Positions 8,315 to 55,917 of a DNA stretch of 64,000 nucleotides are shown piece after piece. The position numbers were made by a program, and so were the translations under genes. Source of the stretch: Candidatus Nanoarchaeia archaeon (GTDB lineage: Archaea > Nanobdellota > Nanobdellia > Woesearchaeales > JANQNE01). Every line of letters starts with the position of its first letter. Position 1 is the stretch's first letter. The stretch lies in the NCBI GenBank assembly GCA_028279725.1, contig JANQNE010000011.1:25872-89871 (forward strand), given 5' to 3'. The notes beneath the pieces were generated by a model. It ran no database searches. It worked only from the letters and a program-made list of their open reading frames with translations, and had not been told where the DNA came from.

Positions 8315-9194
8315 AGTTGATCCACTCCCATTGTTTTGTCTCTTCTAAATTCCAAAGTTTCTTCCAGCCTGAATCACCCGACATAAAATCAATCTTTTTT
8401 GCTTTTAATTTTATTGCATTCTTTATATGTTCTGCTATAAGAAGCTTTCCTAAGTTCTTGATATCTGTGTTTGTTCCTCCGTCAAGGACATAGTAGACGT
8501 TATTGTAGAATATGGCTATTTCAGCAGCTTCTGTCTTGTTGCTGATCTTTATCGATAACATGTGAAGCATATCTTTTTCTTTTGCTGTTTCAACAAGTTT
8601 TTTCATGCTTTCTTCAAATCCATCCTGAAGATAGTTTGAATCTTCCCTAAATCTTTGTTTGTTAAGCTCTACAAGTGTCTTAAAGTCGTCTATGTTGTTC
8701 CATACTGTGCTGTAGTTCAGCTCTTCAAGATGCCTTAGGTCATATTTTATGTTTTTTCTGTGTTTTTTGCTGAAAGATGCAAAATAAGAGTCTATATCTG
8801 GAAAGTCCTCTATATTTAGTGAGAAGGATACATCGCATTCTTTTGGATCAGGAAAATATTCTTTCTCAGAATCATCTATGTATTCTATATTCATGTCTTC
8901 TGGGAATGAGTTAAGGAAATCTTTGATATGTTCTTTGTTTTTTATGAAGAATCTCCTTCTTTCAGGATAGTTTCCACCAAAGAATGCATGGAAATCATTA
9001 TCTCCTTCGTACTGTAATGGGAGCAGACCTATCTCTTTTCCTTCCTGGTAACCTACTACGAAAAAGAACTGATTAATCTTTGGATTGAAGAAGCAATGGT
9101 TGAACTCCCAAAGATCCCATAGTATCTCTTTTGGGCTGTATTTATCCCAAAGCTTCTTACAGTCTTCAAGTTTTGTGAAGGATTTAAATTCCAT
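8301..9194 (-). CDS. GNAT-fold acyl/aminoacyl-transferase, FemAB/CelD-like (Acetyltransf_6-like)
   Basis: C-terminal AEIAIFYNNVYYVLDGGTN...GKLLIAEHIKNAIKLKAKKIDFMSGDSGWKKLW resembles the CelD/BioF2-like GNAT pattern (xDFxxGxxxYKxxW). Overlaps its neighbours at both ends. Confidence 0.55.
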   Translation of the reverse strand: MEFKSFTKLEDCKKLWDKYSPKEILWDLWEFNHCFFNPKINQFFFVVGYQEGKEIGLLPLQYEGDNDFHAFFGGNYPERRRFFIKNKEHIKDFLNSFPEDMNIEYIDDSEKEYFPDPKECDVSFSLNIEDFPDIDSYFASFSKKHRKNIKYDLRHLEELNYSTVWNNIDDFKTLVELNKQRFREDSNYLQDGFEESMKKLVETAKEKDMLHMLSIKISNKTEAAEIAIFYNNVYYVLDGGTNTDIKNLGKLLIAEHIKNAIKLKAKKIDFMSGDSGWKKLWNLEETKQWEWINFEPE

Positions 9195-10107
9195 CCTTGT
9201 TTTTCCTCATTATCGAGAAAGTATATGTGTTGTATGTGCTTACTGGTTTAAATTTGTTCTTAAATTCAAGCAGGTCATCATCTGAACCGCCGAAATTGGC
9301 TTTATCGAAGCCCATCTTCTTTATCTCTATGAGGTCATATAGGTTTGTTATCTCTCCGAGTCCTTCAAATTTGTAGTTAAGCACACCTATGCCTGAATAA
9401 TATGTATTTGTGTTTGGAACTCTCCATCCTGCTGTTATCGAGCATGGAATTCCATCAACTATCAGTGTTTTTGCCATGTCACAGCCTGCGAAATCTGAAT
9501 CAACCATCCTAAAATAGCATTCTTTATAGGCAAAATCTTCTGCTCCTCTTTTATCTATCCAGTCTGTGATGATTTTCTTTAGTTCTTCTTTTGGAAGATC
9601 CAATGAATCTATTAGTTCAACTTTATGTTCTTCAAGGAATCTGTTCTTTATATTTCTTATCTTCTTCCATTTCTTTCCTTCAAGCTTATCTCCATCCCAT
9701 GTTTTCATATCATACATCGGCCATTCAAGCCTAAAGTTAAGCTGTCCTGATCTGAAGTCTGTGTTTTCAAGTTTTTCTTTCAGTTCTTTCCTGAATTTCT
9801 TGTCAACTTCTATCTGAAGCCTGTTAGCTTCGTCTTTGTTGAAAACATGATCTACAAACTTCATGAATGTTTCAAATTTCTCTTCTTTTGGAGCAAGGAC
9901 TTCAGATATCATATACCAAAGCTTGCCTGTCTTTGATTTTTGTGCAAGAACACCTTTGCTGTTATCAAAGCCTACAAATATAGGCATCTTTGCGCTTGTT
10001 GTCTGGTTCATATAGTGATGATAGTTATGTTCAGCATCATGGCCATGTATTTCAACAGCTTTTATTGCTTTTTCTTCAAATTCTTTCTTATCTGTCAATA
10101 CTTCCAA
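9184..10107 (-). CDS. standalone DUF2156 protein (MprF C-terminal aminoacyl-transferase-like), paralog 2
   Basis: GKKWKKIRNIKNRF, ITAGWRVPNTNTYYSGIG, GLGE and FGGSDDDLLEFKNKFKP match the LPG-synthase C-terminal pattern (xxFKxKFxP). No membrane domain. Confidence 0.55.
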   Translation of the reverse strand: MEVLTDKKEFEEKAIKAVEIHGHDAEHNYHHYMNQTTSAKMPIFVGFDNSKGVLAQKSKTGKLWYMISEVLAPKEEKFETFMKFVDHVFNKDEANRLQIEVDKKFRKELKEKLENTDFRSGQLNFRLEWPMYDMKTWDGDKLEGKKWKKIRNIKNRFLEEHKVELIDSLDLPKEELKKIITDWIDKRGAEDFAYKECYFRMVDSDFAGCDMAKTLIVDGIPCSITAGWRVPNTNTYYSGIGVLNYKFEGLGEITNLYDLIEIKKMGFDKANFGGSDDDLLEFKNKFKPVSTYNTYTFSIMRKNKDGI

Positions 10108-12866: not shown

Positions 12867-13211
12867 ATGGCTGCAAAACAAAAAATAATAGGGCTTACTG
12901 AAAAAGTACTGGTCTATGGCCAGAATAAAAAGAAAAATGTTGTCGCTAGGATAGATACTGGAGCGACAAAGTCTTCTATCGATGTAAAATTAGCTGCTGA
13001 GCTGCAGTTAGGTCCTATATACAGGACTAAATTAGTCAAGTCTACCCATGGTAATACATTAAGGCCTGTTGTTGAGATGAACATAAGACTTTCTGGGGTG
13101 GAATTAAGGTCAGATTTTACGATAGCTGACAGAACTGATATGAAATATCAGATATTGGTCGGCCAGAATATATTGAAAGAGGGAAATTTTTTGGTTAATC
13201 CTAAAAAATGA
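12867..13211 (+). CDS. retropepsin-like aspartic protease domain protein (RimK-associated, DUF785/Zn_protease-like)
   Basis: ARIDTGATKSSID (D-T-G-A active-site signature). 114 aa. Overlaps the rimK-like start by 4 nt. Confidence 0.6.
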   Translation: MAAKQKIIGLTEKVLVYGQNKKKNVVARIDTGATKSSIDVKLAAELQLGPIYRTKLVKSTHGNTLRPVVEMNIRLSGVELRSDFTIADRTDMKYQILVGQNILKEGNFLVNPKK

Positions 13212-14311
13212 AAGCTGCATTAATCAGTCTAGGAAGCAAGAGCTCTCAATTTACAGCTGAAGCTATGAAGAATTACTTTGATGAAGTTGATGATCTTGAT
13301 ATAAAGAATATAGAAGTTAATTTTGGTGTTAAGGAGCTTGAACTATTATATAATGGAGAGCCTTTGAAGGATTATGACTGTGTCTATGCAAAAGGATCTT
13401 TCAGATATTCACCTTTGCTTGCGTCAATAACATCTGTATTGGCTAAGAAAGATATATATCTGCCGATAAGCGCAGATTCTTTTACTATAAGCCATGATAA
13501 GCTGCTTACACAGATAGAGCTTCAGAAGAACAAGATACCTATGCCTAAAACATATCTTTCTTCTACACCTGAAGCTGCAAGGGAGCTGTTAGAGAAGGTC
13601 AATTATCCTATAATCATGAAGTTTCCGCAGGGAACACAAGGGAAAGGGGTGATGGTCGCTGATTCTTTTGCTTCAGCATCTTCAATGCTTGATGCTTTGT
13701 CAGCTTTGAGACAGCCTTTTTTGATACAGGAATATATAGAGACAGGCGGAATCGATATAAGAGCGATAGTTGTGGGAAAGAAAGTTGTTGCAGCGATGAA
13801 AAGAAAGGCAGAAGGGGAAGAGAAGAGAGCAAATATACATGCAGGCGGTAAAGCAGAGCCTTGCCAGCTGGATGCTCACACTAAAAAGATCGCTATAGAT
13901 ACTGCAAAGGCAGTTGGTGCAGAGATATGCGGTGTTGATATATTAGAAAGTGCTAAGGGTCCTGTTGTCATTGAGGTGAATATATCTCCTGGGCTGCAGG
14001 GAATAATGGCTGCAACTAAGGTTAATGTTGCTGACAAGATAGCAAAATATCTTTATGAAGTTTCCAAGAAGAGATCTGAAGGGGATAAAAAAGAGTCAGC
14101 ATCAAAGATACTGAGCGATCTTGGTGTTGAAGAGGCAACAAAGACATCAAAAGATATAATGACGACCCTTGATTTCAGAGGAAAGAGGGTGTTGCTGCCT
14201 GAAGTTGTAACCAATCTTACTAAGTTTGATGATACGCAGGATGTTGTGATAAGTGCTGACAAAGGAAAGCTTGAGATAAAGAAGCTTATCATCGGCGCTA
14301 AGAAGAAATAA
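13208..14311 (+). CDS. rimK: RimK-family alpha-L-glutamate ligase (ATP-grasp) with a C-terminal extension of roughly 80 aa
   Basis: YPIIMKFPQGTQGKGVMV, FLIQEYIETGGIDIRAIVVG, RANIHAGG and CGVDILES..GPVVIEVNISPG follow the RimK/LysX pattern. Confidence 0.75.
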   Translation: MKAALISLGSKSSQFTAEAMKNYFDEVDDLDIKNIEVNFGVKELELLYNGEPLKDYDCVYAKGSFRYSPLLASITSVLAKKDIYLPISADSFTISHDKLLTQIELQKNKIPMPKTYLSSTPEAARELLEKVNYPIIMKFPQGTQGKGVMVADSFASASSMLDALSALRQPFLIQEYIETGGIDIRAIVVGKKVVAAMKRKAEGEEKRANIHAGGKAEPCQLDAHTKKIAIDTAKAVGAEICGVDILESAKGPVVIEVNISPGLQGIMAATKVNVADKIAKYLYEVSKKRSEGDKKESASKILSDLGVEEATKTSKDIMTTLDFRGKRVLLPEVVTNLTKFDDTQDVVISADKGKLEIKKLIIGAKKK

Positions 14312-14342: not shown

Positions 14343-16424
14343 ATGTGTGGGATTATAGGGATATTTAACCATAAGGATGCTAAGAAGCTAGCTAAGAAGG
14401 GGCTGTCTAAGATATTATACAGGGGAAAGGACAGTAATGGCCTCTTTAGTTCTGAGAATTGCTGTATCGGACATTGCCTGCATTCTGTAGTTAATTTTGT
14501 TGAACAGCCTTTCAAAGGAAAAGGTGTGCTGATCGTAAATTGCGAGCTGTATAATTGGGAAGAGCTTAACGATAAATATAAGTTTAAGGCAAGGAATGAT
14601 TCTGAATTACTTTTTATGTTGTTGGAGAAGAAAGGAGTTTCAAAGATCAAAGAGATATTAGATGAGCTGGATGGTGTTTATTCTTTCTGCTATTGGATTG
14701 ATGATAAAGTTTATGTTGCGAGAGATATAATCGGTGTAAAGCCATTATGGTTCTCTAAGTATGAGCATCTTGGTTTTGCTTCTGAGAAAAAGGCATTGAA
14801 AGAGATAGGAATGTTTGATGCTGAGGAACTAAATCCCAGGAAGATATTAGTTTATGATGTGAAGAAGAATAAGGTTGAATTTATCGAGAGGGATTTTTTA
14901 AAGATAACACCTGAATTGAAGTGTAAATATGAAAAGATAAAGAAAGAGCTGACTGGGCTTGTTGTTAATTCTATCTCTAAAAGGATACCTGATCAGAAGT
15001 TTGGGATATTGTTTTCCGGAGGGATTGACTCTGGTCTGATCGCACATGCATGTAAAGAATTAGGTGTTGATTTTACATGCTATACTGCTGCTTTGAAAGA
15101 AAAAGGGATGGGAGAAGCAGAAGATATGGTCTATGCTAAGAAAGTTGCTGATAAATTAGGATTCAGGCTAAAGACAAAGACAATTTCTCTTAAAGAAACT
15201 GAAAAGTATCTGAAAAAAGTAGTTCCTTTGATAGAAGATTCCAATGTTGTTAAAGTTGGAGTGGGATTGACTTTCTATGTTGCATGTGAGATGGCTAAGA
15301 AAGATGGGATCAAAGTTATATTTTCCGGACTTGGATCTGAGGAGCTGTTTGCCGGCTATGAAAGGCATAGGAAAAGTGATCTGATAAACAAAGAATGCCT
15401 TTCTGGAGTCATTAAGATATATGAAAGGGATCTTTATAGGGATGATGTTATTGCGATGGCAAACAATCTTGAGCTTAGGCTTCCTTTTCTGGATAAGAAG
15501 CTTACTAGTTATGCACTGAAGATTCCTGCTAAATACAAGATAAAAGATGGGTTGACTAAAGTTGTTCTCCGTGATGTTGCTGTTGGTCTTGGTTATGATA
15601 AAGAATTTGCATCTAGAAGGAAGAAAGCTGCGCAGTATGGAAGCAAGTTTGACAGAGCGATAGCTAAACTTGCTAAGAGAAAAGGATTTAACCTTAAATC
15701 AGAATATTTGAGGACCTTTTATCCGGAAGTTAATCTTAAGCTAGGTGTGTTGTTCAGTTCTGGGAAAGACAGCTGCTATGCGATGCATGTTATGAAAAGA
15801 CAGAATTATGAGATAAGCTGCCTGATAACATTAAAGAGCAAAAATAAAGATTCTTATATGTTTCATACGCCTGCTATCGAGCTTGCTGAAGTGCAGGCGA
15901 AGGCGATGGAATTACCTATAATAGAACAGGAGACTGCAGGTGTTAAGGAAAAAGAGCTTGCTGATCTGAAGAAGGCATTAGCTGCTGCAAAGAAAGAGCA
16001 TAAGATAGAAGGTGTTGTGACCGGAGCATTATTTTCTAAATATCAGCGTGAAAGGATAGAGAAGGTTGCTGATAGTCTTGGGTTAAAGATATTTTCTCCT
16101 TTGTGGCATATGGATCAGGAGACTGAGCTTAAAAGTTTGGTGAGAGAAGGATTTGATGTTATTATCAGCTCTATAGCTGGTTATGGCATGGAAACAAAAG
16201 ATATAGGAAAGAGGATTGATGATAAGATGATCTCGAAATTGAGAAGGTTAAAAGATAAGATCGGGTTTAATGTAGCTGGAGAAGGCGGAGAGTTTGAGAG
16301 CTTTGTCCTTGATGGGCCTATGTTTAAGAAGAGATTGGAGATTGTTGATAGCCAGAGAGCTATAGAGAATGAATGTACTGGCAGGATGCTGATCAAGAAG
16401 ATTAAATTAGTCGACAAGAAATAG
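14343..16424 (+). CDS. fusion protein: glutamine-hydrolysing asparagine synthase-like (N) + diphthine-ammonia ligase Dph6/MJ0570-like PP-loop domain (C)
   Basis: Start set at MCGIIG (Ntn Cys2), with TATA ctttttaaata about 25 nt upstream. AsnB PP-loop ILFSGGIDSG. C-terminal LGVLFSSGKDSCYAM and VAGEGGEFESFVLDGPMF are Dph6 signatures. Confidence 0.75.
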   Translation: MCGIIGIFNHKDAKKLAKKGLSKILYRGKDSNGLFSSENCCIGHCLHSVVNFVEQPFKGKGVLIVNCELYNWEELNDKYKFKARNDSELLFMLLEKKGVSKIKEILDELDGVYSFCYWIDDKVYVARDIIGVKPLWFSKYEHLGFASEKKALKEIGMFDAEELNPRKILVYDVKKNKVEFIERDFLKITPELKCKYEKIKKELTGLVVNSISKRIPDQKFGILFSGGIDSGLIAHACKELGVDFTCYTAALKEKGMGEAEDMVYAKKVADKLGFRLKTKTISLKETEKYLKKVVPLIEDSNVVKVGVGLTFYVACEMAKKDGIKVIFSGLGSEELFAGYERHRKSDLINKECLSGVIKIYERDLYRDDVIAMANNLELRLPFLDKKLTSYALKIPAKYKIKDGLTKVVLRDVAVGLGYDKEFASRRKKAAQYGSKFDRAIAKLAKRKGFNLKSEYLRTFYPEVNLKLGVLFSSGKDSCYAMHVMKRQNYEISCLITLKSKNKDSYMFHTPAIELAEVQAKAMELPIIEQETAGVKEKELADLKKALAAAKKEHKIEGVVTGALFSKYQRERIEKVADSLGLKIFSPLWHMDQETELKSLVREGFDVIISSIAGYGMETKDIGKRIDDKMISKLRRLKDKIGFNVAGEGGEFESFVLDGPMFKKRLEIVDSQRAIENECTGRMLIKKIKLVDKK

Positions 16425-23282: not shown

Positions 23283-24782
23283 TTAACCTCTGTCAGCTTT
23301 CTCCAGCTTTTCTATCTTTTCTTTGTTTTTCTTTTTTATCGCTTTCTGGATCTTCTCATTTGAGAGTCCTAAGATCTGTGCTGCATGTCTTGCTGCATTA
23401 GCAGGTCTTAAGATCAATGAGTTAGAGCTTCCTGGTGGATTCTCTAAGCAAGAAAAGCAATCATCTGCATCAGGAGGACAGCTGATCACTGGGTGAACGC
23501 TGTGGAATGATACAACTCCTGAAAGAGCATCTGTTCCTCCTGCAACAGAGATAAATACAACTGGTTCTTCAGACTGGTTGTATTTGTTTATGATCTCTTC
23601 ACATCTTCTTGGTTGTTTGTGTGCTGAGCAGATTCTTATGACTGATGCCAGTCCGTATTTGTTCAACTCTTCCTGGATCTTTTTCAGATGAGGCATGTCA
23701 CTGTCTGATCCTGCTATGATAACTACTAAGCCACCTTTGATGTATCCTTCTTTTCTTAGCTTTTGGATCATATCTGTGCTTACATCTGACTGAGGGAAAT
23801 TGAACTTATTTCCTGTCAGGCTTTCATATAAACTGATATATCTGTAAGCAACTTCTATTACATCTTTGTCTTCAAGTTCTGGCGGCTTTTCTGTTGATCC
23901 GTAAGCACCATATCCTTTTTCAACAAGAACATCTCTAACGAACTGTTTTGACAGCTCTTTTATCTTTAGCTGTGGTTTTTTCTTAAGAAGTTCTGTTACA
24001 TCTTTGTATCTTCCTGTATCCATCTCTTTCTTTATTCCTGTGTATTTGTTGTATTCTTCTATTGTACAGTATCTTGATGAATCTGGTGTGTTTGCTTCGT
24101 CAATCAGGTTGATCTTTCCTTTTTCGTCGATACCAAACTCATACTTTGTGTCAATGAAGATAAATCCTTTCTGTTCTGCCAGTTTTGATGCACGCTTAAA
24201 TAGTCTTATTGAGATATCTCTGAGCTGTGTTGCCAGTTTTTTTCCAAGCTTATCTGCCATGTATTCAAAGCTTACATTAACATCATGATCTCCATCTTCT
24301 GCTTTTGTAGCTGGAGTAAATAATGGTTCTCTAAGCTTTTGGTATCTTAGCAATGAATCTGAAAGCTTTATTCCGCAGAACTCTCTTTTTCCATCTTCGT
24401 AGTCTGCAGCCATGCTTCCCCAAACATATCCTCTTACAACGAATTCGAATGCAATCTTATTCATCTTTTTCTGGACAATAACATTTCCATGAGGGCTTCT
24501 TATGACAGCGTTTGGAACAATATCTGTTGTGTTGTCAAATGCCCATTGTGCGAAGAGGTTTAATGTTAATCCTTTGAAAGGGATCTGCCTGCTAAGTACA
24601 TGGTCAAAGCAAGATATCCTATCTGATGCCACCATCACTATAGGTTTTCCAACTTTTGGTGATGTAAAATGTACTTCTCTTACTTTTCCTGATTTATGTG
24701 TTCCAAGTTCTGGGATGTATCCTGAGAACAGGGTATTGTCTAAGTTTTCTTTGATTATTTTTTTGTATTTTTGTTCTTCCAT
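23283..24782 (-). CDS. purC-purE: bifunctional SAICAR synthetase (N) + class II-like AIR carboxylase PurE (C), PAICS-like order
   Basis: N: GKVREVH...VASDRISCFD...IPFKG. C: IIAGSDSDMPH, CSAHKQP, VAGGTDALSGVV...HPVISCPP, AAQILGLSN (animal PAICS-like strings). Confidence 0.85.
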   Translation of the reverse strand: MEEQKYKKIIKENLDNTLFSGYIPELGTHKSGKVREVHFTSPKVGKPIVMVASDRISCFDHVLSRQIPFKGLTLNLFAQWAFDNTTDIVPNAVIRSPHGNVIVQKKMNKIAFEFVVRGYVWGSMAADYEDGKREFCGIKLSDSLLRYQKLREPLFTPATKAEDGDHDVNVSFEYMADKLGKKLATQLRDISIRLFKRASKLAEQKGFIFIDTKYEFGIDEKGKINLIDEANTPDSSRYCTIEEYNKYTGIKKEMDTGRYKDVTELLKKKPQLKIKELSKQFVRDVLVEKGYGAYGSTEKPPELEDKDVIEVAYRYISLYESLTGNKFNFPQSDVSTDMIQKLRKEGYIKGGLVVIIAGSDSDMPHLKKIQEELNKYGLASVIRICSAHKQPRRCEEIINKYNQSEEPVVFISVAGGTDALSGVVSFHSVHPVISCPPDADDCFSCLENPPGSSNSLILRPANAARHAAQILGLSNEKIQKAIKKKNKEKIEKLEKADRG

Positions 24783-28169: not shown

Positions 28170-28738
28170 TATTTACACCTTATCACTCTTTTTTCGGTAA
28201 TTATCATATCCATCGGGATGTCATAATCTTCTGTTGGTATATTTTTTGTTATCTGTTCTTCAAATGCAAGCCCTATTTTTAGGGAGTTTCTGTCTTTCAG
28301 GAATCTGTCGTAAAAACCTTTTCCGAATCCTATCCTTGCTCCGCTTTGGTCAAAAGCGATGCCTGGGACGAGGACGATGTCCAGGTTTTCTTTGTATTCC
28401 TCTTTTTTGATTGGTTCGAGTACTCCGAAGTTCCCTTCTTTTAGGTCATTGAAGTCAGATAATTTTGATATCTTTATGTTGTTTTCTTCGACAAATGGGA
28501 TGATTACTGTCTTTTGCTGCAGTTGTTCTTTGATTAATTCTATTGTGTTTACCTCACTTTTTAGTGAAAGGTAAGACATCACTATGTTTGCTTTTTTGAA
28601 CTCATCCAGATCTTTTAGATGTTGGATGATTGTCTTGCTTTTTTCTGAGATCTGTTCTTCCGGTATGTTATCTCTTATGGACCTTATGGTGTTTCTGATC
28701 TCTTGTTTGTTTATTCTGTTCATAGTGCGATTCTTCAC
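28169..28738 (-). CDS. 5-formyltetrahydrofolate cyclo-ligase
   Basis: LVPGIAFDQSGARIGFGKGFYDRFL is the MTHFS signature. Confidence 0.8.
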   Translation of the reverse strand: MKNRTMNRINKQEIRNTIRSIRDNIPEEQISEKSKTIIQHLKDLDEFKKANIVMSYLSLKSEVNTIELIKEQLQQKTVIIPFVEENNIKISKLSDFNDLKEGNFGVLEPIKKEEYKENLDIVLVPGIAFDQSGARIGFGKGFYDRFLKDRNSLKIGLAFEEQITKNIPTEDYDIPMDMIITEKRVIRCK

Positions 28739-31404
28739 TTTTGCCTATCAAGCTCTTTTTTTGCAATATCTTTTCTAAAAAACATGCCGTCGAAGTTTAT
28801 GTCATTTATTTTTGTGTATGCTGTATCGACGGCATCTTTAAGGGTTGATCCTAATGTGATTACATTTAATACTCTTCCTCCATTTGTGAGGATCTTTCCG
28901 TTATCTTTCTTTGTTCCAGCGTGAATCACCTGTGCTCCACTTATGTTATCTAAACCTTTTATCTCTTTTCCCTTTTCATATGAACCAGGATAACCTCCTG
29001 ATGCTAGTACTATGCTTACGCAGTGTTTTTCAGACCAGTCTAGTTTCATAGCTCCTAGTTTCTTGTCTATTACTGCGTTCATTACGTCAAGTATATCATT
29101 GTTTAATCTTGGAAGGATAACCTGTGTTTCCGGATCTCCAAATCTGCAGTTGAATTCTAAGATCTTTAGGCCGTCTTTTGTTTTCATAAGTCCGACGTAG
29201 AGGACTCCTTTGTATTCTATGCCTTCTGCTTTTGTTCCAGCTATGAATGGCTTAATTATCTTTTCTTCCATCTCTTTTTCAAGTCCGTCTAATATTGGTG
29301 CTGGTGAGTAAGCTCCCATCCCTCCTGTATTAGGGCCTTTGTCTCCTTCATAGATTGGTTTGTGATCCTGTGAATATACCATTGGCTTGAATGTTTCTGA
29401 GTCTACGAAGACTAAGTAGGACCCTTCTTCACCTACAAGACATTCTTCTACAACTATTGATGAAGATGCATCTCCGAATTTGTTTGCTTTTAGGCATTCT
29501 TCTGCAAACTTTACTGCTTCTTCTACTGTGTTTGCGACAAGAACTCCTTTTCCAGCAGCTAGTCCGTCTGCTTTTACGACAATTGGTGCTCCCTGCTTTT
29601 CGATGTATGCTTTTGCTTTTTCAAAATCAGTGAATTCATCAAATTCAACTGTTGGAAGATTATATTTTTTCATGAATCTTCTTGCAAATGCTTTTGATCC
29701 TTCAAACTGTGATGCTTTTTTGTTAGGGCCGAAGACTCTTATCCCTGCTTTTTCAAGTTCGTCAGCTGCTCCGTTAACTAGCGGAGCTTCTGGACCTATG
29801 ATTGCAAGATCTATCTTCTTTTCTTTTGCAAACTTGACTAAAGCTTCATTATCATTTTGGTCGATATCATGACAGCAAGCTACCTGGCCAATACCTGGAT
29901 TTCCCGGGACTGCGTATAGTTTGTTTAATCTGTCAGATTCTGTGACTTTTAATGCAATAGCATGCTCTCTTCCGCCTGAACCAACTATCATTACGTTAAG
30001 TTTGGTGTCTAATGTTGTCTGCTCTTCTGTTCTCTGGCAACCAAGGCATTGCTGCTGTGATTCTGATACTGGTTCTGGGTATTCTCCTGTTAAACATGCC
30101 ATACATACATCCCTCCTTGTAGCATTCTTGATATTATCAACTGTTGCATATACTAAATTATCTGCTTCAAGATATTCTCTTATCTGTTCTATTGATTTAT
30201 CTGAAGCTATAAGCTCTTTTTTTGTCGCCATGTCTATCCCATAGAAGCATGGGAATTTTATAGGAGGACAAGCAGAAACAAATGTAACTTTTCTAACTCC
30301 TCCATCTTTTAATGTTCTTACTATCCTTTTTGATGTTGTTCCCCTTACAATGCTGTCATCAACTACAGCAACACTCTTGTTTTCAAGTATACTTATTACA
30401 GGCCTTAGTTTTCTTCTTACTGAGTCATGCCTTGTCTTTTGTGATGACATTATGAATGTTCTTTGTATATATTTATCTTTGATCAGACCTTCCCTATATT
30501 TTACAGCAAGATCTTCACTTAATTTTATAGCAGCTGTCCTTCCTGAATCTGGAACTGGGACTACAACATCGATGTCTTTTTGGTCCATCTGCTCGCTCAT
30601 CAGTTTTCCAAGAGCTAATCTTGTCTTGTATACTGATCTGTTCTCTATCATGCTGTTCGGGCTTGCAAAATATATCCATTCAAACATACAATGAGCTTTT
30701 TTCTCCTGTTTTAGGATCTTGCTTTCTATAACCAAGTCTTTTGAGATAAAAACAGCTTCTCCTGGCTCTATATCTCTGACATAATCATGATCAATAACCT
30801 GAAATGCTACAGTTTCTGAAGCAAATATGTATGAATCTCCTCTCTTTCCGAGAACTAAAGGCCTTATGCCTCTTGGATCTCTTATCGCGAATATACCTTT
30901 GTCTGCTATCATTCCAACAATTGAGTAAGCTCCTCTTACCTTATCCATGAAGTGCTTTGCAGCTGCAAAGAAATCTCCATGCTGTTCGTAATGCTCTGCG
31001 AATATTCTTAGAAGAACTTCACCGTCAACAGAGGTTTCAAGATGTTTTCCTTTTTTTTGGAATTCTTCTTTTAGGTCGAAGTAGTTTATTGTGTTTCCGT
31101 TCTGAGCCATAGCAACTTTTGGGTTGATCTTTGTTGTAAGAGGTTGTGCGTCGCACAACATTCCTTTTCCCTGTGTTGCATATCTTGTGTGGCCGATGCC
31201 CATCTTCCCTTGTAATAGGTTTGCGTCTCTTGCCTTGAATACTCTGTGAACAGCATCCATCTCTTTTTTTGTGAAGAATTCGTCTTTTACGTTTGTTACT
31301 ATGCCGCATGCATCCTGGCCTCTATGCTGCAATGACATCAAGCTAGTTACTGCATCCTCAAAAACTTCATCATCTTTTGAAACAATACCAATAATTCCGC
31401 ACAT
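28735..31404 (-). CDS. purF-purD: fusion protein: amidophosphoribosyltransferase PurF (N) + phosphoribosylamine-glycine ligase PurD (C), 889 aa
   Basis: N: MCGIIGIV, HTRYATQG, VDDSIVRGTT, CMACLTGEYP. C: VMIVGSGGREHAIA, VVKADGLAAGKGV, EFNCRFGDPE, TNGGRVL. Confidence 0.9.
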   Translation of the reverse strand: MCGIIGIVSKDDEVFEDAVTSLMSLQHRGQDACGIVTNVKDEFFTKKEMDAVHRVFKARDANLLQGKMGIGHTRYATQGKGMLCDAQPLTTKINPKVAMAQNGNTINYFDLKEEFQKKGKHLETSVDGEVLLRIFAEHYEQHGDFFAAAKHFMDKVRGAYSIVGMIADKGIFAIRDPRGIRPLVLGKRGDSYIFASETVAFQVIDHDYVRDIEPGEAVFISKDLVIESKILKQEKKAHCMFEWIYFASPNSMIENRSVYKTRLALGKLMSEQMDQKDIDVVVPVPDSGRTAAIKLSEDLAVKYREGLIKDKYIQRTFIMSSQKTRHDSVRRKLRPVISILENKSVAVVDDSIVRGTTSKRIVRTLKDGGVRKVTFVSACPPIKFPCFYGIDMATKKELIASDKSIEQIREYLEADNLVYATVDNIKNATRRDVCMACLTGEYPEPVSESQQQCLGCQRTEEQTTLDTKLNVMIVGSGGREHAIALKVTESDRLNKLYAVPGNPGIGQVACCHDIDQNDNEALVKFAKEKKIDLAIIGPEAPLVNGAADELEKAGIRVFGPNKKASQFEGSKAFARRFMKKYNLPTVEFDEFTDFEKAKAYIEKQGAPIVVKADGLAAGKGVLVANTVEEAVKFAEECLKANKFGDASSSIVVEECLVGEEGSYLVFVDSETFKPMVYSQDHKPIYEGDKGPNTGGMGAYSPAPILDGLEKEMEEKIIKPFIAGTKAEGIEYKGVLYVGLMKTKDGLKILEFNCRFGDPETQVILPRLNNDILDVMNAVIDKKLGAMKLDWSEKHCVSIVLASGGYPGSYEKGKEIKGLDNISGAQVIHAGTKKDNGKILTNGGRVLNVITLGSTLKDAVDTAYTKINDINFDGMFFRKDIAKKELDRQK

Positions 31405-37287: not shown

Positions 37288-38244
37288 CTATGACACCTTA
37301 AATCTATTCTTAGTAATAGAAGTTATGTCTTCTCCAACTGCCTTATTTACAATATCTCTTAGAAAGTTTATTGACTCATCTTCCCCAATATCTTTTAATT
37401 CATTTAATATGACTCTAATCTTATTTTTTCCATATGTTTCTTCAATATATTTCCAAAAACAATATCCTGTGTAATACCAGTAAATACGTGGATTTTCAGG
37501 AGCTTTTGATAAATCTGAATAATCATGTACTCTTTTTATTTGAGGATCCCCAAAGTCTGATCCATACCACCCATCACTTCTACACTCAATTCCTATGGCT
37601 CTTCTTTCCTGCTCATCTATATAAGTTGCTATCCCTTCGTTCGCCCACCCAGGAATAATGGTATCTGAAACAAATACATGGGTCATTTCATGTAAGTTTA
37701 AACAAACTTGTTCTTCATAGATTTTCTCTTTAAAATAACCCTCATTATCAACTCGTCTTTTATAAGCTTCCATATTAAGAAAAGTCGTTACCCCACTAGA
37801 TGTAGCTCCTGAGAATGTGTTCTCATCATCTCCGACCAAAACTAGATAATAAATAAATTCAGACTTTGTAGAATTGGGCAAATCAATTCCTAATTCTTTC
37901 TTCAGGAATTTGATACAAGTTAAAGAATCTTGCAAATAATCTTCAGCTAACCACTTACCAAATTCCTTGTTGTAAACTATAGTTACATTCTCTCTAGAGA
38001 TTATATCTTCATCTTCACCAGGAACCCCTTCGCAATCTATATAACATCTTTGCCAAGTCTCTTTACCATTGCATATTCCATCACCACAAAAAGGAGGTCT
38101 TTCTTCTTTGACTTTCTCATACTCATTAATAACAGCTGGTGCTTCTTCCTCAATAATTATGATGGGGGTGTCTTTCTCCTTAGTTTCCTGATAAGCACAA
38201 CCAGTAATCAATAAAACAAAAACTATGAAAACGACTTTTATCAT
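37288..38244 (-). CDS. secreted lipoprotein, putative zinc metallopeptidase
   Basis: Lipobox LLITGC, the Cys module CGDGICNGKETWQRCYIDCEG and HExxH as LHEMTHVF. Confidence 0.6.
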   Translation of the reverse strand: MIKVVFIVFVLLITGCAYQETKEKDTPIIIIEEEAPAVINEYEKVKEERPPFCGDGICNGKETWQRCYIDCEGVPGEDEDIISRENVTIVYNKEFGKWLAEDYLQDSLTCIKFLKKELGIDLPNSTKSEFIYYLVLVGDDENTFSGATSSGVTTFLNMEAYKRRVDNEGYFKEKIYEEQVCLNLHEMTHVFVSDTIIPGWANEGIATYIDEQERRAIGIECRSDGWYGSDFGDPQIKRVHDYSDLSKAPENPRIYWYYTGYCFWKYIEETYGKNKIRVILNELKDIGEDESINFLRDIVNKAVGEDITSITKNRFKVS

Positions 38245-41909: not shown

Positions 41910-44900
41910 ATGAAGGATTTAAGCAGATATCTAGATAAATTTAGAGGCGATTCTGTTAGGTTAGATAGACCTAGCCTTGATGATGATATCCGGACTATAG
42001 TATTCAATTATGAGCCTTTTGTTCTTGATTGGAAAAATTTTAGGAAACTGGAAAGAGATACTGAAAGAGAAGCAGAAGAAGTCTATAAGCAAAGAGCTCT
42101 GAATGGAGACACCTATACTGATATTGAAAAACAGTTTAAAGATGACCCAAAAGGAAGATATGATGCTACGAAAGATAGAGACTGGGTTGAAGGAAAGGTA
42201 AAAGCGTTCAGGCCGGAGATAAAAAGAGCTCTTGAGAGCAAATCAATAATAGGTATTAGACCTGACCAGGAAGATCTTGAGTCTATCTGTATGGATAGGA
42301 ACATCACTTTAGTTGGAAAAGAAGTTGTAGGTATTAATTCTGAATTTATGGTGGGAAATGACATCATACTTTTGGAGACCGAAGTATATGAAAAGGTCTG
42401 TGAGAGGCTAAAAGAAAGCGATGATAAATCAAAAGAGAATGCAGTAGCTACAATCAAGGAAGTTATTGAAGAAGAACTTACTAAAGAGAAACCAAAACTG
42501 CTGATAGTTGATAATGAAATGGGAGAAAGATTGAGGATGACTGAAATAGCTCTAAAATGCGGGTTTAGCACTCGAATAGCTGAAAATCCAGAACAGGCAT
42601 TTCAGATGCTTGAAAAAGAAAAAGACATTGGTACGATAATAACAGGTGATATATTTCCTGGAACTAATGGGCTTGATTTCATAATGGAGCTTAGAAAGAG
42701 AGGAGGAGAACAGCATGCAATACTTGTATCAGATGAGCAGTTCATAGAAAAGGAATATGAAGGAAAAAACCATAAAGAACTGCTTCAGGCAAATGTGAGA
42801 GTTATTGAGAAAGGAGGAAATACAGATCCAGAGATAAGAAGTGAATTTCTTAATGCTAAAGGTAAGATGGATCTTATGGCTGAGAAGACAGATGTACGTA
42901 TAGAGGAGAAAGATTCAAAGATACCAACCTTTGCAGATTTTGAGAATAAGATAAGAGATTACAACAGCAATTCTGGAAAGCTTATAATGCTTGATTCGAA
43001 TGATATCAATGAAGTTATTACATCATTCAAGAGCAAGTTTAAAACACCCGAAGATTATATCACACTTTCAACTTTGAATAATGAAGATATGAAATACATA
43101 TTGACTGTTCCACGTATACTTAAGATTGAAGAGAATGGTGTGGAAGATAAAGCTATCGACCATATGATGGATGTTTTGGATCCTGAGGAAAGAAATCTAG
43201 GAAATGTTCTTGGAAAATTCTATGAAAAGATAAAAGAAGGATGGACTGGAGAAGATGTACAGGAGCTGCTTCGTTCAATCCTACGAAAAGAAGATGTAGG
43301 AGAATCTATCAAGAGTATTTACAGAAATAGAAAGGGTATGGATGATGAAGTAGTCATTGAAAGGAATATGAGAGAAGGTTCTGATTTTAGAACTTCTATA
43401 TTTTTCAGCTATAAGAATGCAGGAAGAGTGGCTGAAAGATACAATCATTATAGTGAGGATAAAAGGATAAAGTATAATCTTGGAATTACAACAGAAAGAG
43501 TAAGCTGGGTTGCAAAGAACAATGCACTGCTTGCCAGGTATCTTGAGATGTTTGGTGCTGCAAAAGGGAAAGTTGAACATGACAGTCTTGTCAATATAAT
43601 AAATCAGGACAGAAAGGATGATGTTGTGAGCATCAAGGAATCAAAGATTACAGTAGATTCAAAATATCATGTTTACGAAGTTACATCAACTTATGGAGAA
43701 AATGAAAAAAGACACAGCATAGTAAAATTCATAACTAATCCAGATTCATTTGAAAGGGAAGTCTATAACTATAATTATTTCAAGAGATTTGACGGAATAA
43801 ATGATGCGAATAGTCTGGTAACTACAACAGTGGAGGATGAAGAAGGAAACAAGAATTATGTTGTTGTACTTAATTTTAAGGAAGGAGTGGAGCCTAGACA
43901 GAATCTTATGACTACTTTTGAAAATATAAGAGAGAGTATCAAGACAGGAGGAGATGATGTTAAGAAAGAGCTTAATGATAAGGCAAATAAAGTAGGGATA
44001 CAGGCTATGTCTGATGTAGGAAGAGTACATGGTGTTGCTCCTGAACTAAAAGGAGATACATACACTTCATTCTATGGTGATTTTAAAAAATACCTTCATT
44101 TCAGGATAGGAGAGTTCCAAGATAATCTTACTGACCTTGTAAAACAGCTTGCTACTGAATTTAAAGATCATATACAAAAGAACTCATCAAGAGTTAAATC
44201 AAACTCTTATTCACTTGTTGAATATCTAGCAAGCATGGATACAACTTTCTATAAGGATACTGTAACAAAGAACATGACTCCTATGGGGGAGGAAGGAGGG
44301 AAGAACTCAGGCAGGTTTGCATCAGTTGATTATGGAGAAGTCAGAAAACTTCCACTGACTTTTGATGTTGCAAATGCAGTACATACTATGTACATACCTG
44401 ATATCAGGGTTGCTGAGGAAGATGGAACAATAGATCAGATGCTGATATCCTATCTTAGTGGATATTGTGAAGGAAGAACATCGTACAATAATGAAGTTAT
44501 GAAGAAGAAAAATGTAAAAAAATATCTTGTAGATAATCTTGAAAGGATGAGAAAAGGGACAGGAAATGAAAGTGTAAGGGAGAATCTATCTGATCTTCTT
44601 AAGATAATAAAGAAGGAAGAGCCAAAACATAAGAGCAGGAAAAAGAAGATGGCATTTTATAAGGATATCATGTCTGGATTTGCTGAGTCAAGCGGATCAG
44701 ATGAGTTAAAAAGAGTTGTAGCGAATGAGATCAAATATTTTGATGAAATAGAAGATAAACCTGACCCATATTTTGGGAAGCTTAAGATCAGGACAAGCAC
44801 TGCGAAAGGAAGAAGAAACAAAAGATATGAGATCATAAGCGATAAATTAAAAGGACCAAGAGATAGGTGGTCAACTAAATTGAATGATGCGTTCGAAAGA

Positions 44901-45212
44901 TTCAAAGCAGATTTCTATGTAAGTATGGCATACAGAGGACAGGTTATAGCAAATACTGTTCCAGTCTATATATTATCAGATCATAATATCAACAAGCAGA
45001 GGAGGGATTATTTTTCATCTGTTATGGGAAATACTACTCAAGCATTAGAGATACTTAGTGAGAAATATATCGGAAAAGAAAAAGGAATGTACTTAAGGAG
45101 AGAGCTAGATGGCGATAAGCTTAATGAAGTTAAGAATGCACTTTCAGATATCAGGAATATATTTGAAAAGATAGATCCGGGGGCTGTTAAGAATGCCGAA
45201 TACAAAGCTTGA
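41910..45212 (+). CDS. 1100-aa multidomain protein: unknown N-terminus, receiver (REC) domain, possible protein-kinase-like/APH-like domain, unknown C-terminus
   Basis: REC: KLLIVDNEMGER...IGTIITGDIFPGTNGLDFIMELRK...HAILVSD. Kinase-like: HSIVKFITNPDSFEREVYNY, VVVLNFKEG, FYKDTVTKN (HxDxxxxN-like), ASVDYGE (DFG-like). Confidence 0.6.
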   Translation: MKDLSRYLDKFRGDSVRLDRPSLDDDIRTIVFNYEPFVLDWKNFRKLERDTEREAEEVYKQRALNGDTYTDIEKQFKDDPKGRYDATKDRDWVEGKVKAFRPEIKRALESKSIIGIRPDQEDLESICMDRNITLVGKEVVGINSEFMVGNDIILLETEVYEKVCERLKESDDKSKENAVATIKEVIEEELTKEKPKLLIVDNEMGERLRMTEIALKCGFSTRIAENPEQAFQMLEKEKDIGTIITGDIFPGTNGLDFIMELRKRGGEQHAILVSDEQFIEKEYEGKNHKELLQANVRVIEKGGNTDPEIRSEFLNAKGKMDLMAEKTDVRIEEKDSKIPTFADFENKIRDYNSNSGKLIMLDSNDINEVITSFKSKFKTPEDYITLSTLNNEDMKYILTVPRILKIEENGVEDKAIDHMMDVLDPEERNLGNVLGKFYEKIKEGWTGEDVQELLRSILRKEDVGESIKSIYRNRKGMDDEVVIERNMREGSDFRTSIFFSYKNAGRVAERYNHYSEDKRIKYNLGITTERVSWVAKNNALLARYLEMFGAAKGKVEHDSLVNIINQDRKDDVVSIKESKITVDSKYHVYEVTSTYGENEKRHSIVKFITNPDSFEREVYNYNYFKRFDGINDANSLVTTTVEDEEGNKNYVVVLNFKEGVEPRQNLMTTFENIRESIKTGGDDVKKELNDKANKVGIQAMSDVGRVHGVAPELKGDTYTSFYGDFKKYLHFRIGEFQDNLTDLVKQLATEFKDHIQKNSSRVKSNSYSLVEYLASMDTTFYKDTVTKNMTPMGEEGGKNSGRFASVDYGEVRKLPLTFDVANAVHTMYIPDIRVAEEDGTIDQMLISYLSGYCEGRTSYNNEVMKKKNVKKYLVDNLERMRKGTGNESVRENLSDLLKIIKKEEPKHKSRKKKMAFYKDIMSGFAESSGSDELKRVVANEIKYFDEIEDKPDPYFGKLKIRTSTAKGRRNKRYEIISDKLKGPRDRWSTKLNDAFERFKADFYVSMAYRGQVIANTVPVYILSDHNINKQRRDYFSSVMGNTTQALEILSEKYIGKEKGMYLRRELDGDKLNEVKNALSDIRNIFEKIDPGAVKNAEYKA

Positions 45213-55823: not shown

Positions 55824-55917
55824 ATAGGTGGGAAATATGTGGGTGAGGTATATAAAATTTTCTACTCGTCTGATCAAAAGAAAAAATATTTAAACCCCTG
55901 TTACTTTAGCCTTATAA

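What the first reader, a model, noticed from the sequence alone, without database searches (positions are those of the whole stretch)
14343..16424. Fusion of an AsnB-type glutamine amidotransferase to a Dph6-type diphthine-ammonia ligase domain
One 693-aa polypeptide (from MCGIIG) carries a complete Ntn-glutaminase and PP-loop asparagine-synthase-like unit (SGGIDS). It is followed by a second PP-loop domain with the Dph6/MJ0570 signatures SSGKDS and GEGGEFESFVLDGPMF. Dph6 normally amidates diphthine on EF-2 using free ammonium. A covalently attached glutaminase suggests a glutamine-dependent, ammonia-channelling version of that step, or a new amidation chemistry. I am not aware that this architecture has been described.
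Basis: partly seen in the sequence, partly recalled or inferred. Interest (0 to 1): 0.58.

Follow-up and report, generated by a model that had tools for sequence, protein, structure and literature searches.

The report
Known AsnB-like–Dph6 fusion enzyme
This is a real three-domain archaeal gene joining a glutamine-splitting, asparagine-synthetase-like unit to the enzyme that finishes the diphthamide modification of elongation factor 2, but the fusion was published in 2012 and is common in archaeal genomes, so it is not new, although how it works is still untested.

Summary
Window 14343-16424 (+) is one 693-aa ORF with an Ntn glutaminase, an AsnB-type PP-loop domain (SGGIDS) and a C-terminal archaeal Dph6 domain (SSGKDS, EGGEFE), which scores above NCBIfam's equivalog cutoff. 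It is not an assembly artefact: at least 120 protein clusters and 593 of 600 candidate stretches in GTDB genomes encode relatives, mostly full-length, across DPANN archaea, Methanosarcinales (including cultured Methanolobus), ANME and Halobacteria.

The novelty claim fails. de Crécy-Lagard et al. 2012 described this architecture and proposed the same glutamine-to-ammonia idea. NCBI already names such proteins 'diphthine--ammonia ligase'.

What I add:
- The AsnB-like domain is not a canonical asparagine synthetase. The glutamate essential for catalysis (human Glu-364, E. coli Glu-348) is Leu here and is never Glu or Asp in 217 relatives.
- The family is modular. Some members lack the glutaminase or have a dead one, a few have a decayed middle site, and the Dph6 site is intact in nearly all fusions.
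- AlphaFold2 predicts a rigid three-domain body (pLDDT 92.9, pTM 0.89).

Most likely this is the organism's Dph6 with a built-in glutamine-derived ammonia supply. That step is inferred, not shown. Interest is low to moderate.

The parts
14343..16424 (+). Complete CDS, 693 aa plus stop: GAT-II, AsnB-like PP-loop domain and Dph6 fused in one chain
   Evidence: ORF; domains; coordinates verified; 100% identical to database protein P0001.
14343..14912 (+). Class-II (Ntn) glutaminase domain, residues 1-190. Catalytic set: Cys2, Arg27, Asn66, Glu68, Asp86.
   Evidence: Pfam GATase_6/7. C2, R27, N66 and D86 are invariant in 118 fused homologues. They correspond to human ASNS Cys-1, Arg-48, Asn-74, Glu-76 and Asp-96.
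14928..15722 (+). AsnB-like PP-loop (adenylate-forming) domain, residues 196-460
   Evidence: Pfam Asn_synthase. Aligns to human ASNS and E. coli AsnB. Fold match TM 0.75-0.78.
15015..15032 (+). PP-loop 1, SGGIDS (residues 225-230)
   Evidence: S225, G226, G227, D229 and S230 are invariant. The loop stays intact even in relatives without a glutaminase.
15324..15344 (+). Motif SGLGSEE (residues 328-334), where AsnB/ASNS reads SGEGSDE. Leu330 (nt 15330-15332) replaces the catalytic Glu.
   Evidence: Residue-by-residue count on the 1CT9 and 8SUE alignments. L330 is invariant in 118 sequences. The position is never E or D in 217 relatives. Human E364A and E364Q are inactive.
15471..15479 (+). Glu377-Leu-Arg379, equivalent to human ASNS Glu-414 and Arg-416 at the glutaminase/synthetase interface
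   Evidence: 102 of 102 conserved when the glutaminase is intact. E377 is lost in more than half of the forms with an absent or dead glutaminase. Role of Glu-414 taken.
15678..15752 (+). Structured junction between the two PP-loop domains (residues 446-470)
   Evidence: Fixed length: 25 aa in 89 of 118 sequences, range 22-25. Y455, L456, F459, N464 and L467 are near-invariant. pLDDT about 94.
15738..16406 (+). Dph6 (diphthine-ammonia ligase, DUF71/MJ0570-type) domain, residues 466-688
   Evidence: TIGR03679 scores 274.7 bits against a cutoff of 197.3. PF01902 at 1.8e-65. Aligns end to end with PH1257 and PF0828. Fold TM 0.94-0.96, rmsd about 1.5 Å.
15756..15773 (+). PP-loop 2, SSGKDS (residues 472-477)
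   Evidence: S472, G474, K475 and D476 are invariant.
16281..16298 (+). EGGEFE motif (residues 647-652), equal to PF0828 E183/E186/E188
   Evidence: E647, G648, G649, E650 and E652 are invariant. These residues are named as conserved EF-2-interface residues in PMC3541065.

Best explanation
The gene encodes this archaeon's diphthine-ammonia ligase (Dph6), the enzyme that completes diphthamide on EF-2. It is permanently joined, through a rigid and conserved junction, to an AsnB-derived amidotransferase module.

Proposed mechanism:
1. The N-terminal Ntn glutaminase (Cys2) hydrolyses glutamine.
2. The ammonia passes through the AsnB-type interdomain tunnel. The interface residues Glu377 and Arg379 are conserved.
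3. The ammonia is consumed inside the same protein body rather than released.
4. The C-terminal domain adenylates the diphthine carboxylate with its own PP-loop and amidates it.

The middle AsnB-like domain still looks like an ATP-binding, adenylate-forming site, but it lacks the glutamate that asparagine synthetases need. It is therefore probably not a standard asparagine synthetase. It acts as the tunnel-bearing scaffold that couples the glutaminase to Dph6, and it may have a second, still unknown amidation activity.

Shown: the domain identities, the integrity of the three sites, the missing Glu, the rigid predicted architecture, and the wide recurrence of the fusion.

Inferred: that glutamine-derived ammonia reaches the Dph6 site, and what the middle site does.
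For: - Dph6 identity: equivalog HMM above cutoff; end-to-end alignment to PH1257 and PF0828; fold match TM 0.94-0.96.
- The residues the 2012 paper places at the EF-2 interface are all invariant here: PF0828 S44, E78, Y103, Q104, E183, E186 and E188 correspond to S504, E538, Y567, Q568, E647, E650 and E652.
- In M. mahii and M. zhilinae the single DUF71 gene is the fused one, so it is their only Dph6 candidate.
- DPANN archaea generally carry the dph pathway.
- Glutaminase competence: C2, R27, N66 and D86 are invariant. The interface pair E377/R379 is conserved in 102 of 102 sequences when the glutaminase is intact and decays when it is lost. This pattern is expected of a working glutaminase-tunnel unit.
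- Not a canonical AsnB: Leu330 sits at the Glu-348/Glu-364 position. The position is never E or D in 217 relatives. Human E364A and E364Q are inactive even with NH4+. TIGR01536 scores below its cutoff.
- Integration: pTM 0.89 and pLDDT 92.9 for the whole chain, with a fixed-length, conserved junction.
- A glutaminase client other than the middle site: about 5 of 95 fusions with a perfect glutaminase have a decayed middle adenylation site but intact Dph6.
- The same idea was proposed independently in PMC3541065.
Against: - No direct evidence shows that ammonia reaches the Dph6 site.
- About 25 diverse relatives are AsnB-like PP-loop + Dph6 with no glutaminase anywhere in ±8 kb. About 15 more keep only a dead glutaminase fold. 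Methanohalophilus sp. RSK lacks Cys1. So the fusion persists without glutamine supply.
- PP-loop 1 and the equivalents of D367, E368, D400 and K466 are conserved in every architecture. This argues that the middle domain has its own chemistry and could be the real ammonia consumer.
- Stand-alone GAT + AsnB-like proteins with the same Leu exist and have no Dph6 gene nearby.
- No dph2, dph5 or EF-2 gene lies in the window.
Confidence: 0.5

Rival explanations
1. It is a bifunctional enzyme made of two independent amidoligases. The AsnB-like half is the organism's working asparagine synthetase, with a variant active site, or makes a closely related amide. The Dph6 half uses free ammonium as usual. 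The fusion is a neutral or co-regulatory event in a genome prone to fusions, with no ammonia shared between the halves.
For: - PP-loop 1 and the equivalents of ASNS Ser-362, Gly-363, Asp-367 (as Glu), Glu-368, Asp-400 and Lys-466 are retained and conserved in all architectures.
- TIGR01536 misses its cutoff by only 6 bits.
- A family-specific invariant Arg341 (motif GYxRH) could replace the lost Glu in binding the substrate (inference).
- Stand-alone versions of the module exist.
- The same window carries PurF-PurD and PurC-PurE fusions.
- Fusions without a glutaminase still keep both PP-loop sites.
Against: - The Glu whose Ala and Gln substitutions inactivate human ASNS is absent from every one of 217 relatives.
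- The junction is rigid and conserved, and the chain is predicted as one body, which is not expected for a casual fusion.
- A few lineages lose the middle site but keep the glutaminase and Dph6.
- The fusion is maintained across very distant archaeal lineages.
Confidence: 0.3
2. The AsnB-like PP-loop domain performs a second, unrecognised ATP-dependent amidation or ligation that belongs functionally with Dph6. Candidates are a reaction on EF-2 or on another translation component. This would explain why the two PP-loop domains stay together even when the glutaminase is lost.
For: - The invariant pairing is AsnB-like PP-loop + Dph6, with or without a glutaminase.
- The altered substrate pocket (Glu to Leu, plus a new invariant Arg341) suggests a substrate other than aspartate.
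- AsnB-fold enzymes that act on other substrates, such as beta-lactam and carbapenam synthetases and TsnB9, are structural neighbours.
- Dph2-type genes lie within about 5 kb in L008, L052 and next to the stand-alone module in L079/L080.
- In L082 the neighbours are translation genes.
Against: - Diphthamide synthesis needs only one amidation, and no second modification is known.
- Gene-neighbourhood links are sporadic: 4 of 83 loci, two of which are syntenic.
- No candidate substrate was identified.
Confidence: 0.15
3. The fusion is an artefact: a sequencing or assembly error has joined two adjacent genes.
For: None was found.
Against: - The reading frame is continuous.
- At least 120 independent clusters from NCBI, JGI, ENA and Logan assemblies have the same full-length architecture.
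- 593 of 600 GTDB candidate stretches encode relatives, including isolate genomes.
- The junction is conserved and the fold across it is predicted with confidence.
Confidence: 0.01

Closest known systems
AsnB-DUF71 fusion proteins of Methanohalophilus mahii, Methanosalsum zhilinae and 'Ca. Nanosalinarum' (de Crécy-Lagard et al. 2012, Biol Direct 7:32, Fig. 2C)
   Same: Identical three-domain order: GAT-II, then Asn_Synthase PP-loop, then DUF71/Dph6. The paper proposes the same function, with the glutaminase as the NH3 source. Methanosarcinales homologues align full-length at about 50-57% identity.
   Different: The window protein comes from a low-GC, Woesearchaeota-like DPANN genome. Its glutaminase is fully intact, whereas at least one Methanohalophilus genome has a truncated glutaminase without Cys1. 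The 2012 paper did not examine the active-site residues of the AsnB-like domain.
Stand-alone archaeal Dph6 (PF0828 of Pyrococcus furiosus, PDB 3RJZ; PH1257, PDB 2D13; MJ0570 family, TIGR03679)
   Same: The PP-loop SGGKDS, the EGGE(F/Y)E motif and the EF-2-interface residues are present. The fold matches at TM 0.94-0.96 and the equivalog HMM scores above its cutoff.
   Different: Those proteins are about 220-aa single-domain enzymes thought to use free ammonia. Here the domain is the C-terminal third of a 693-aa chain.
Glutamine-dependent asparagine synthetase (E. coli AsnB, PDB 1CT9; human ASNS, PDB 6GQ3/8SUE)
   Same: It shares the two-domain Ntn glutaminase + PP-loop synthetase fold (TM 0.75-0.78). 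The glutaminase catalytic set, PP-loop, interface Glu/Arg and the equivalents of Asp-400 and Lys-466 are all present.
   Different: The catalytic Glu-348/Glu-364 is Leu. Asp-351/Asp-367 is Glu. The domain is about 100 residues shorter. TIGR01536 scores below its cutoff. A Dph6 domain is attached.
Yeast/eukaryotic Dph6 (YLR143W): DUF71 fused to two RidA/YjgF domains
   Same: A Dph6 domain is fused to a module that could generate ammonia locally. This is the parallel drawn in PMC3541065.
   Different: The partner domains are C-terminal RidA deaminases, not an N-terminal AsnB-type amidotransferase. The yeast enzyme is reported to work with ammonium (my recollection of Su et al. 2012, not checked here).
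Beta-lactam synthetase and carbapenam synthetase (AsnB-derived enzymes with altered chemistry)
   Same: They have the AsnB fold (TM about 0.71-0.74) and a synthetase pocket re-tooled for a substrate other than aspartate. From memory, the residue at the AsnB Glu-348 position is Tyr in beta-lactam synthetase.
   Different: Those enzymes have a catalytically dead N-terminal domain and form rings within one molecule. Here the glutaminase residues are intact and a Dph6 domain is attached.

Membership tests
Dph6 / diphthine-ammonia ligase (TIGR03679, PF01902) | Curated equivalog HMM score above the trusted cutoff | tested here: met
   TIGR03679 scores 274.7 bits against a cutoff of 197.3, residues 469-686. 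PF01902 scores 221 bits against a cutoff of 23.2.
Dph6 / diphthine-ammonia ligase (TIGR03679, PF01902) | N-terminal PP-loop SGGKDS and C-terminal EGGE(F/Y)E(T/S) motif | tested here: met
   SSGKDS at 472-477 and EGGEFE at 647-652, invariant in 118 homologues.
Dph6 / diphthine-ammonia ligase (TIGR03679, PF01902) | Conserved residues predicted at the EF-2 interface (PF0828 S44, Y45, E78, Y103, Q104, E183, E186, E188) | tested here: met
   They map to S504, Y505, E538, Y567, Q568, E647, E650 and E652. All are present, and most are invariant.
Dph6 / diphthine-ammonia ligase (TIGR03679, PF01902) | Fold of PF0828/PH1257 | tested here: met
   Foldseek TM 0.94-0.96 normalised by target, rmsd 1.3-1.6 Å.
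Dph6 / diphthine-ammonia ligase (TIGR03679, PF01902) | Genome also encodes Dph2, Dph5 and an EF-2 with the target histidine | tested here: inconclusive
   None of these lies in the 64-kb window, and the rest of the genome is not available. DPANN archaea generally have the pathway. Dph2-type genes lie near family members in 4 loci.
Dph6 / diphthine-ammonia ligase (TIGR03679, PF01902) | ATP-dependent amidation of diphthine on EF-2 | not testable with these tools
   This needs a biochemical assay.
AsnB-type glutamine-hydrolysing asparagine synthetase (TIGR01536, EC 6.3.5.4) | N-terminal nucleophile Cys1 with the Arg, Asn-x-Glu and Asp glutamine-binding set | tested here: met
   C2, R27, N66, E68 and D86 are present. 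C2, R27, N66 and D86 are invariant and E68 is near-invariant. They align to human Cys-1, Arg-48, Asn-74, Glu-76 and Asp-96.
AsnB-type glutamine-hydrolysing asparagine synthetase (TIGR01536, EC 6.3.5.4) | PP-loop SGGxDS and the essential Lys (E. coli K449, human K466) | tested here: met
   SGGIDS at 225-230. K427 aligns to human Lys-466.
AsnB-type glutamine-hydrolysing asparagine synthetase (TIGR01536, EC 6.3.5.4) | Catalytic glutamate of the SGEGSDE motif (E. coli Glu-348, human Glu-364) | tested here: not met
   Leu330 sits at this position. It is invariant in 118 fused homologues. Across 217 relatives the position reads L147, S18, I12, T9, V9, M6, N5, A3, F3, G2, Q2, R1, and never E or D. 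Human E364A and E364Q are inactive.
AsnB-type glutamine-hydrolysing asparagine synthetase (TIGR01536, EC 6.3.5.4) | Curated equivalog HMM score above cutoff | tested here: not met
   TIGR01536 scores 260.9 bits against a cutoff of 267.1. NF006949 AsnB scores 215.8 against a cutoff of 499.
AsnB-DUF71 fusion architecture (de Crécy-Lagard et al. 2012) | One polypeptide in the order GAT-II, then Asn_Synthase PP-loop, then DUF71 | tested here: met
   Homologues from Methanosarcinales, the order cited in the paper, align over the full length.

The most novel reading that the evidence does not exclude
The whole clade of AsnB-like modules that lack the catalytic Glu is not an asparagine synthetase family at all. 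It would instead be a dedicated partner of Dph6. In a large fraction of archaea (DPANN, many Methanosarcinales, ANME and others) the last step of diphthamide synthesis would then be glutamine-dependent and ammonia-channelled through a re-purposed AsnB synthetase site. Alternatively, that site may perform a second, unknown ATP-dependent reaction linked to EF-2 modification.
Probability: 0.3. Interest if true: 0.55.

Novelty: already known. Interest (0 to 1): 0.27.

Why it matters
Diphthamide on EF-2 is a universal archaeal and eukaryotic modification that helps maintain translational fidelity. Its last step is catalogued as ammonia-dependent (EC 6.3.1.14). If the fused enzymes use glutamine, that annotation is incomplete for a large share of archaea.

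The fusion would also be a rare case of one glutaminase serving, or being relayed through, two PP-loop adenylation sites in a single chain.

There is a practical point too. The AsnB-like half is routinely annotated as 'asparagine synthase (glutamine-hydrolysing)' in metabolic reconstructions of DPANN genomes. Because the catalytic Glu is missing, asparagine biosynthesis should not be inferred from this gene.

None of this changes the fact that the architecture and the hypothesis have been in the literature since 2012.

Tried and rejected
1. False fusion or sequencing error: rejected. The frame is continuous and the architecture recurs in at least 120 clusters and hundreds of genome loci.
2. 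Tunnel and inter-site geometry: could not be done. Structure prediction returns no coordinates and /data holds none, so only pLDDT and pTM could be used. The afdb50 library was unavailable.
3. Conserved gene neighbourhood: mostly negative. The window's neighbours (retropepsin-like, RimK-like, IMPDH, PurA-like, Ddl-like) are not found next to the fusion in 78 other loci. The exception is L078, where the retropepsin/RimK pair precedes a stand-alone Dph6. Dph2 lies nearby in only 4 of 83 loci.
4. dph2, dph5 or EF-2 in the window: none found among 46 ORFs scanned with Pfam.
5. A second Dph6 or AsnB copy in the window: none.
6. Middle domain as a dead scaffold: rejected as a general explanation. 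PP-loop 1 and the adenylation residues are conserved in every architecture, and only about 5 of 95 sequences show decay.
7. Canonical bifunctional AsnB + Dph6: weakened by the universal loss of the catalytic Glu and the sub-threshold equivalog score.
8. Biochemical characterisation of a glutamine-dependent Dph6 or of the fusion: literature searches found nothing beyond the 2012 comparative-genomics paper.
9. Lys-376 of E. coli AsnB as a conserved substrate contact: I dropped this after seeing that it aligns neither with the query nor with human ASNS.
Full report
1. The observation

Window 14343-16424 (+) is a single uninterrupted reading frame. The ORF lister starts it at a TTG four codons upstream. 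The ATG at 14343 is the sensible start because it gives MCGIIG: Ntn amidotransferases need Cys directly after the initiator Met, and all homologues start MC(G/S)I.

All quoted motifs are present at verified coordinates: SGGIDS at residues 225-230, SSGKDS at 472-477, and AGEGGEFESFVLDGPMF at 645-661.

Pfam finds GATase_6/7 (residues 30-153), Asn_synthase (206-347, 1.5e-43) and Diphthami_syn_2 (466-688, 1.8e-65). NCBIfam's archaeal Dph6 equivalog TIGR03679 scores 274.7 bits against a cutoff of 197.3. The asparagine synthase equivalog TIGR01536 scores 260.9 bits, just under its cutoff of 267.1.

2. Not an artefact, and not rare

A search of 5.8 billion clustered proteins returned the window protein itself (100% identity, NCBI and Logan). 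The 119 further clusters listed cover 93-100% of the query at 56-76% identity and all carry the same three domains. They come from NCBI, JGI, ENA and Logan assemblies of Woesearchaeota and Nanoarchaeota, and are named 'diphthine--ammonia ligase' or 'asparagine synthase (glutamine-hydrolysing)'.

Against 50%-identity representatives, full-length fusions extend down to about 33% identity, and 924 representatives score E ≤ 1e-30.

The hosts include Woesearchaeota/Nanoarchaeota, Iainarchaeia/Diapherotrites, Altiarchaeota, many Methanosarcinales (among them the cultured Methanolobus bombayensis DSM 7082 and Methanohalophilus sp. RSK), ANME-1 and ANME-3 lineages, Methanomicrobiales and Halobacteria MAGs.

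The junction (residues 446-470) has a fixed length, 25 aa in 89 of 118 sequences. It carries near-invariant Y455, L456, F459, N464 and L467.

3. Already described

de Crécy-Lagard et al. 2012 (Biol Direct 7:32, PMC3541065) used exactly this fusion as evidence that DUF71 is the missing diphthine-ammonia ligase. They describe a COG0367/AsnB domain, made of a GAT-II subdomain and an Asn_Synthase_B_C PP-loop subdomain, N-terminal to DUF71. They found it in Methanohalophilus mahii, Methanosalsum zhilinae and 'Ca. Nanosalinarum sp. J07AB56'. [quoted passage not shown]

Reviewer L. Aravind asked which PP-loop domain uses the ammonia and what the Asn-synthetase-like domain does. That question is still open.

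Their Table S1 lists a single DUF71 homologue in both methanogens. The fused protein is therefore their only Dph6 candidate.

I found no later biochemical work on a glutamine-dependent Dph6. Narrowe et al. 2018 confirm that DPANN carry the dph pathway but do not discuss the fusion.

4. The C-terminal domain is a bona fide Dph6

- It aligns end to end with the crystal structures PH1257 (2D13) and PF0828 (3RJZ) at E about 1e-52 to 1e-54.
- The AlphaFold2 model superposes on them at TM 0.94-0.96 and about 1.5 Å rmsd.
- The residues the 2012 paper places at the EF-2 interface map to S504, Y505, E538, Y567, Q568, E647, E650 and E652. All are present, and nearly all are invariant in 118 fused homologues.

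5. The N-terminal module is AsnB-derived but not a canonical asparagine synthetase

The glutaminase set (C2, R27, N66, E68, D86) is intact and conserved. It corresponds to human Cys-1, Arg-48, Asn-74, Glu-76 and Asp-96.

PP-loop 1 is invariant. The equivalents of human Ser-362, Gly-363, Glu-368, Asp-400, Glu-414, Arg-416 and Lys-466 are retained.

The motif that reads S346-G347-E348-G-S-D351-E352 in E. coli AsnB, and S362-G363-E364-G-S-D367-E368 in human ASNS, reads S328-G329-L330-G-S-E333-E334 here. I obtained the numbering by counting along the ungapped HMMER alignments to 1CT9 and 8SUE.

Zhu et al. [quoted passage not shown]

L330 is invariant in the 118 close homologues. Across 217 diverse relatives the position is never Glu or Asp: L147, S18, I12, T9, V9, M6, N5, A3, F3, G2, Q2, R1.

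The loss is not specific to the fusion. Stand-alone GAT + AsnB-like proteins of about 450 aa from Woesearchaeota and Nanoarchaeota share it.

The fold search also lists AsnB-derived enzymes with other chemistries as neighbours: beta-lactam synthetase, carbapenam synthetase and TsnB9.

6. Natural variation across the family

I aligned 232 diverse sequences to a family HMM and scored each catalytic site separately.

- 102 fusions have an intact or nearly intact glutaminase. In these, E377 and R379 (human Glu-414 and Arg-416, which sit at the glutaminase/synthetase interface) are conserved in 102 of 102.
- About 25 fusions have no glutaminase at all. Examples are real ORFs such as L052 7983-9485 (500 aa) and L056 7926-9380 (484 aa), which are preceded by unrelated genes and have no GAT domain within ±8 kb.
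- About 15 fusions keep only a degenerate glutaminase fold, for example with N-termini MTRIAG or MCRIAG.
- Methanohalophilus sp. RSK has a truncated glutaminase without Cys1.
- In the forms without a working glutaminase, E377 is lost in more than half, but PP-loop 1, D363, R366 and K427 stay conserved.
- About 5 of 95 fusions with a perfect glutaminase have a decayed middle adenylation site (the first PP-loop Ser and/or D363/R366 lost) while keeping E377/R379 and Dph6.
- The Dph6 site is intact in essentially all fusions.

So Dph6 is the constant. The middle domain's fold is always present between the glutaminase and Dph6. Neither the glutaminase nor the middle site's chemistry is strictly indispensable.

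7. Structure

AlphaFold2 with the 118-sequence alignment gives mean pLDDT 92.9 and pTM 0.89, with no low-confidence linker. This implies a defined arrangement of the three domains. No solved structure spans all three domains.

8. Context

The gene lies 31 nt downstream of a RimK-family ATP-grasp gene. That gene overlaps the end of a retropepsin-like protease gene. The fusion gene is followed after 115 nt by IMPDH, PurA and GuaA, then by a long purine-biosynthesis cluster that includes PurC-PurE and PurF-PurD fusions. The window holds no dph2, dph5 or EF-2 gene and no second Dph6 or AsnB copy.

The neighbourhood is not conserved elsewhere. The exception is L078, where the same retropepsin/RimK pair precedes a stand-alone Dph6. 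Dph2-type genes lie within about 5 kb in L008, L052 and L079/L080. In a 1.3-Mb contig the fusion sits among translation genes.

9. Interpretation

Most likely (about 0.5), the protein is the organism's Dph6 with a built-in, AsnB-derived glutamine amidotransferase whose ammonia is used internally. The middle domain would be the tunnel-bearing coupler and may have a second activity.

The main rival (about 0.3) is a bifunctional enzyme whose AsnB-like half still makes asparagine, or a related amide, with a variant active site. A more speculative rival (about 0.15) is an unknown second reaction linked to EF-2 modification.

The shown steps are the domain identities, the site integrity, the missing Glu, the recurrence and the rigidity of the model. 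The ammonia route and the middle domain's substrate are inferred.

10. Verdict

The new details are the clade-wide absence of the catalytic Glu and the pattern of modular loss. They sharpen a question that has been open since 2012, and they caution against annotating this gene as an asparagine synthase. They do not make the finding novel. I rate interest as low to moderate and novelty as already known.

Noticed in passing
window 28735-31404 (-): An 889-aa ORF combines PurF (GATase_6/7 + phosphoribosyltransferase) with PurD (GARS N, A and C domains). This is a PurF-PurD fusion of the first two purine-pathway enzymes.
   Followed up: no
window 23283-24782 (-): A 499-aa ORF combines SAICAR synthetase (PurC) with AIR carboxylase (PurE). 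The domain order is the same as in animal PAICS.
   Followed up: no
window 16540-37227: A nearly complete de novo purine and GMP/AMP cluster lies in what looks like a DPANN-type, low-GC archaeal genome: IMPDH, PurA-like, GuaA, PurM, PurN, FolD, PurH, 5-FTHF cyclo-ligase, PurQ, PurL, PurB. DPANN genomes are usually considered poor in nucleotide biosynthesis.
   Followed up: partly
window 12867-14311 (+); L078 2162-4348: A retropepsin-like aspartic protease gene overlaps the start of a RimK-family ATP-grasp ligase gene, which ends 31 nt before the fusion gene. In L078 the same pair directly precedes a stand-alone Dph6. This may be a small operon for modifying the translation apparatus.
   Followed up: partly
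L079 14915-16128; L080 12961-14267: A half-size Dph2 gene (PF01866, the split form reported for DPANN) is followed after 5 nt by a 179-aa protein with a C-terminal J domain carrying the HPD motif. This recalls eukaryotic Dph4, which is not known in archaea. It is seen only in these two syntenic loci.
   Followed up: partly
L049 7548-9791 (Methanohalophilus sp. RSK): In the genus cited in 2012 as the example of the fusion, the glutaminase domain is truncated. Only its C-terminal half is present, with no Cys1. Glutamine use is therefore unlikely in that organism.
   Followed up: partly
window 41910-45212 (+): A 1100-aa ORF has no Pfam match at E ≤ 1e-6. Several other ORFs of 300-470 aa also lack matches: 766-1881, 9184-10107, 37288-38244, 54504-55877, 56925-58325.
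   Followed up: no
L030, L075, P0116: Some family members sit in MAGs labelled as bacteria (Acidobacteriota, Peregrinibacteria, Bacteroidota). These are probably archaeal contigs that were binned wrongly, rather than bacterial Dph6 fusions.
   Followed up: no
window 15354-15368 (residues 338-342, GYERH): The family has a specific invariant Arg341 (motif GYxRH) where ASNS/AsnB reads GYxYFH. Together with the Glu-to-Leu change, this shifts the charge of the putative substrate pocket and may indicate a different substrate or binding mode.
   Followed up: no
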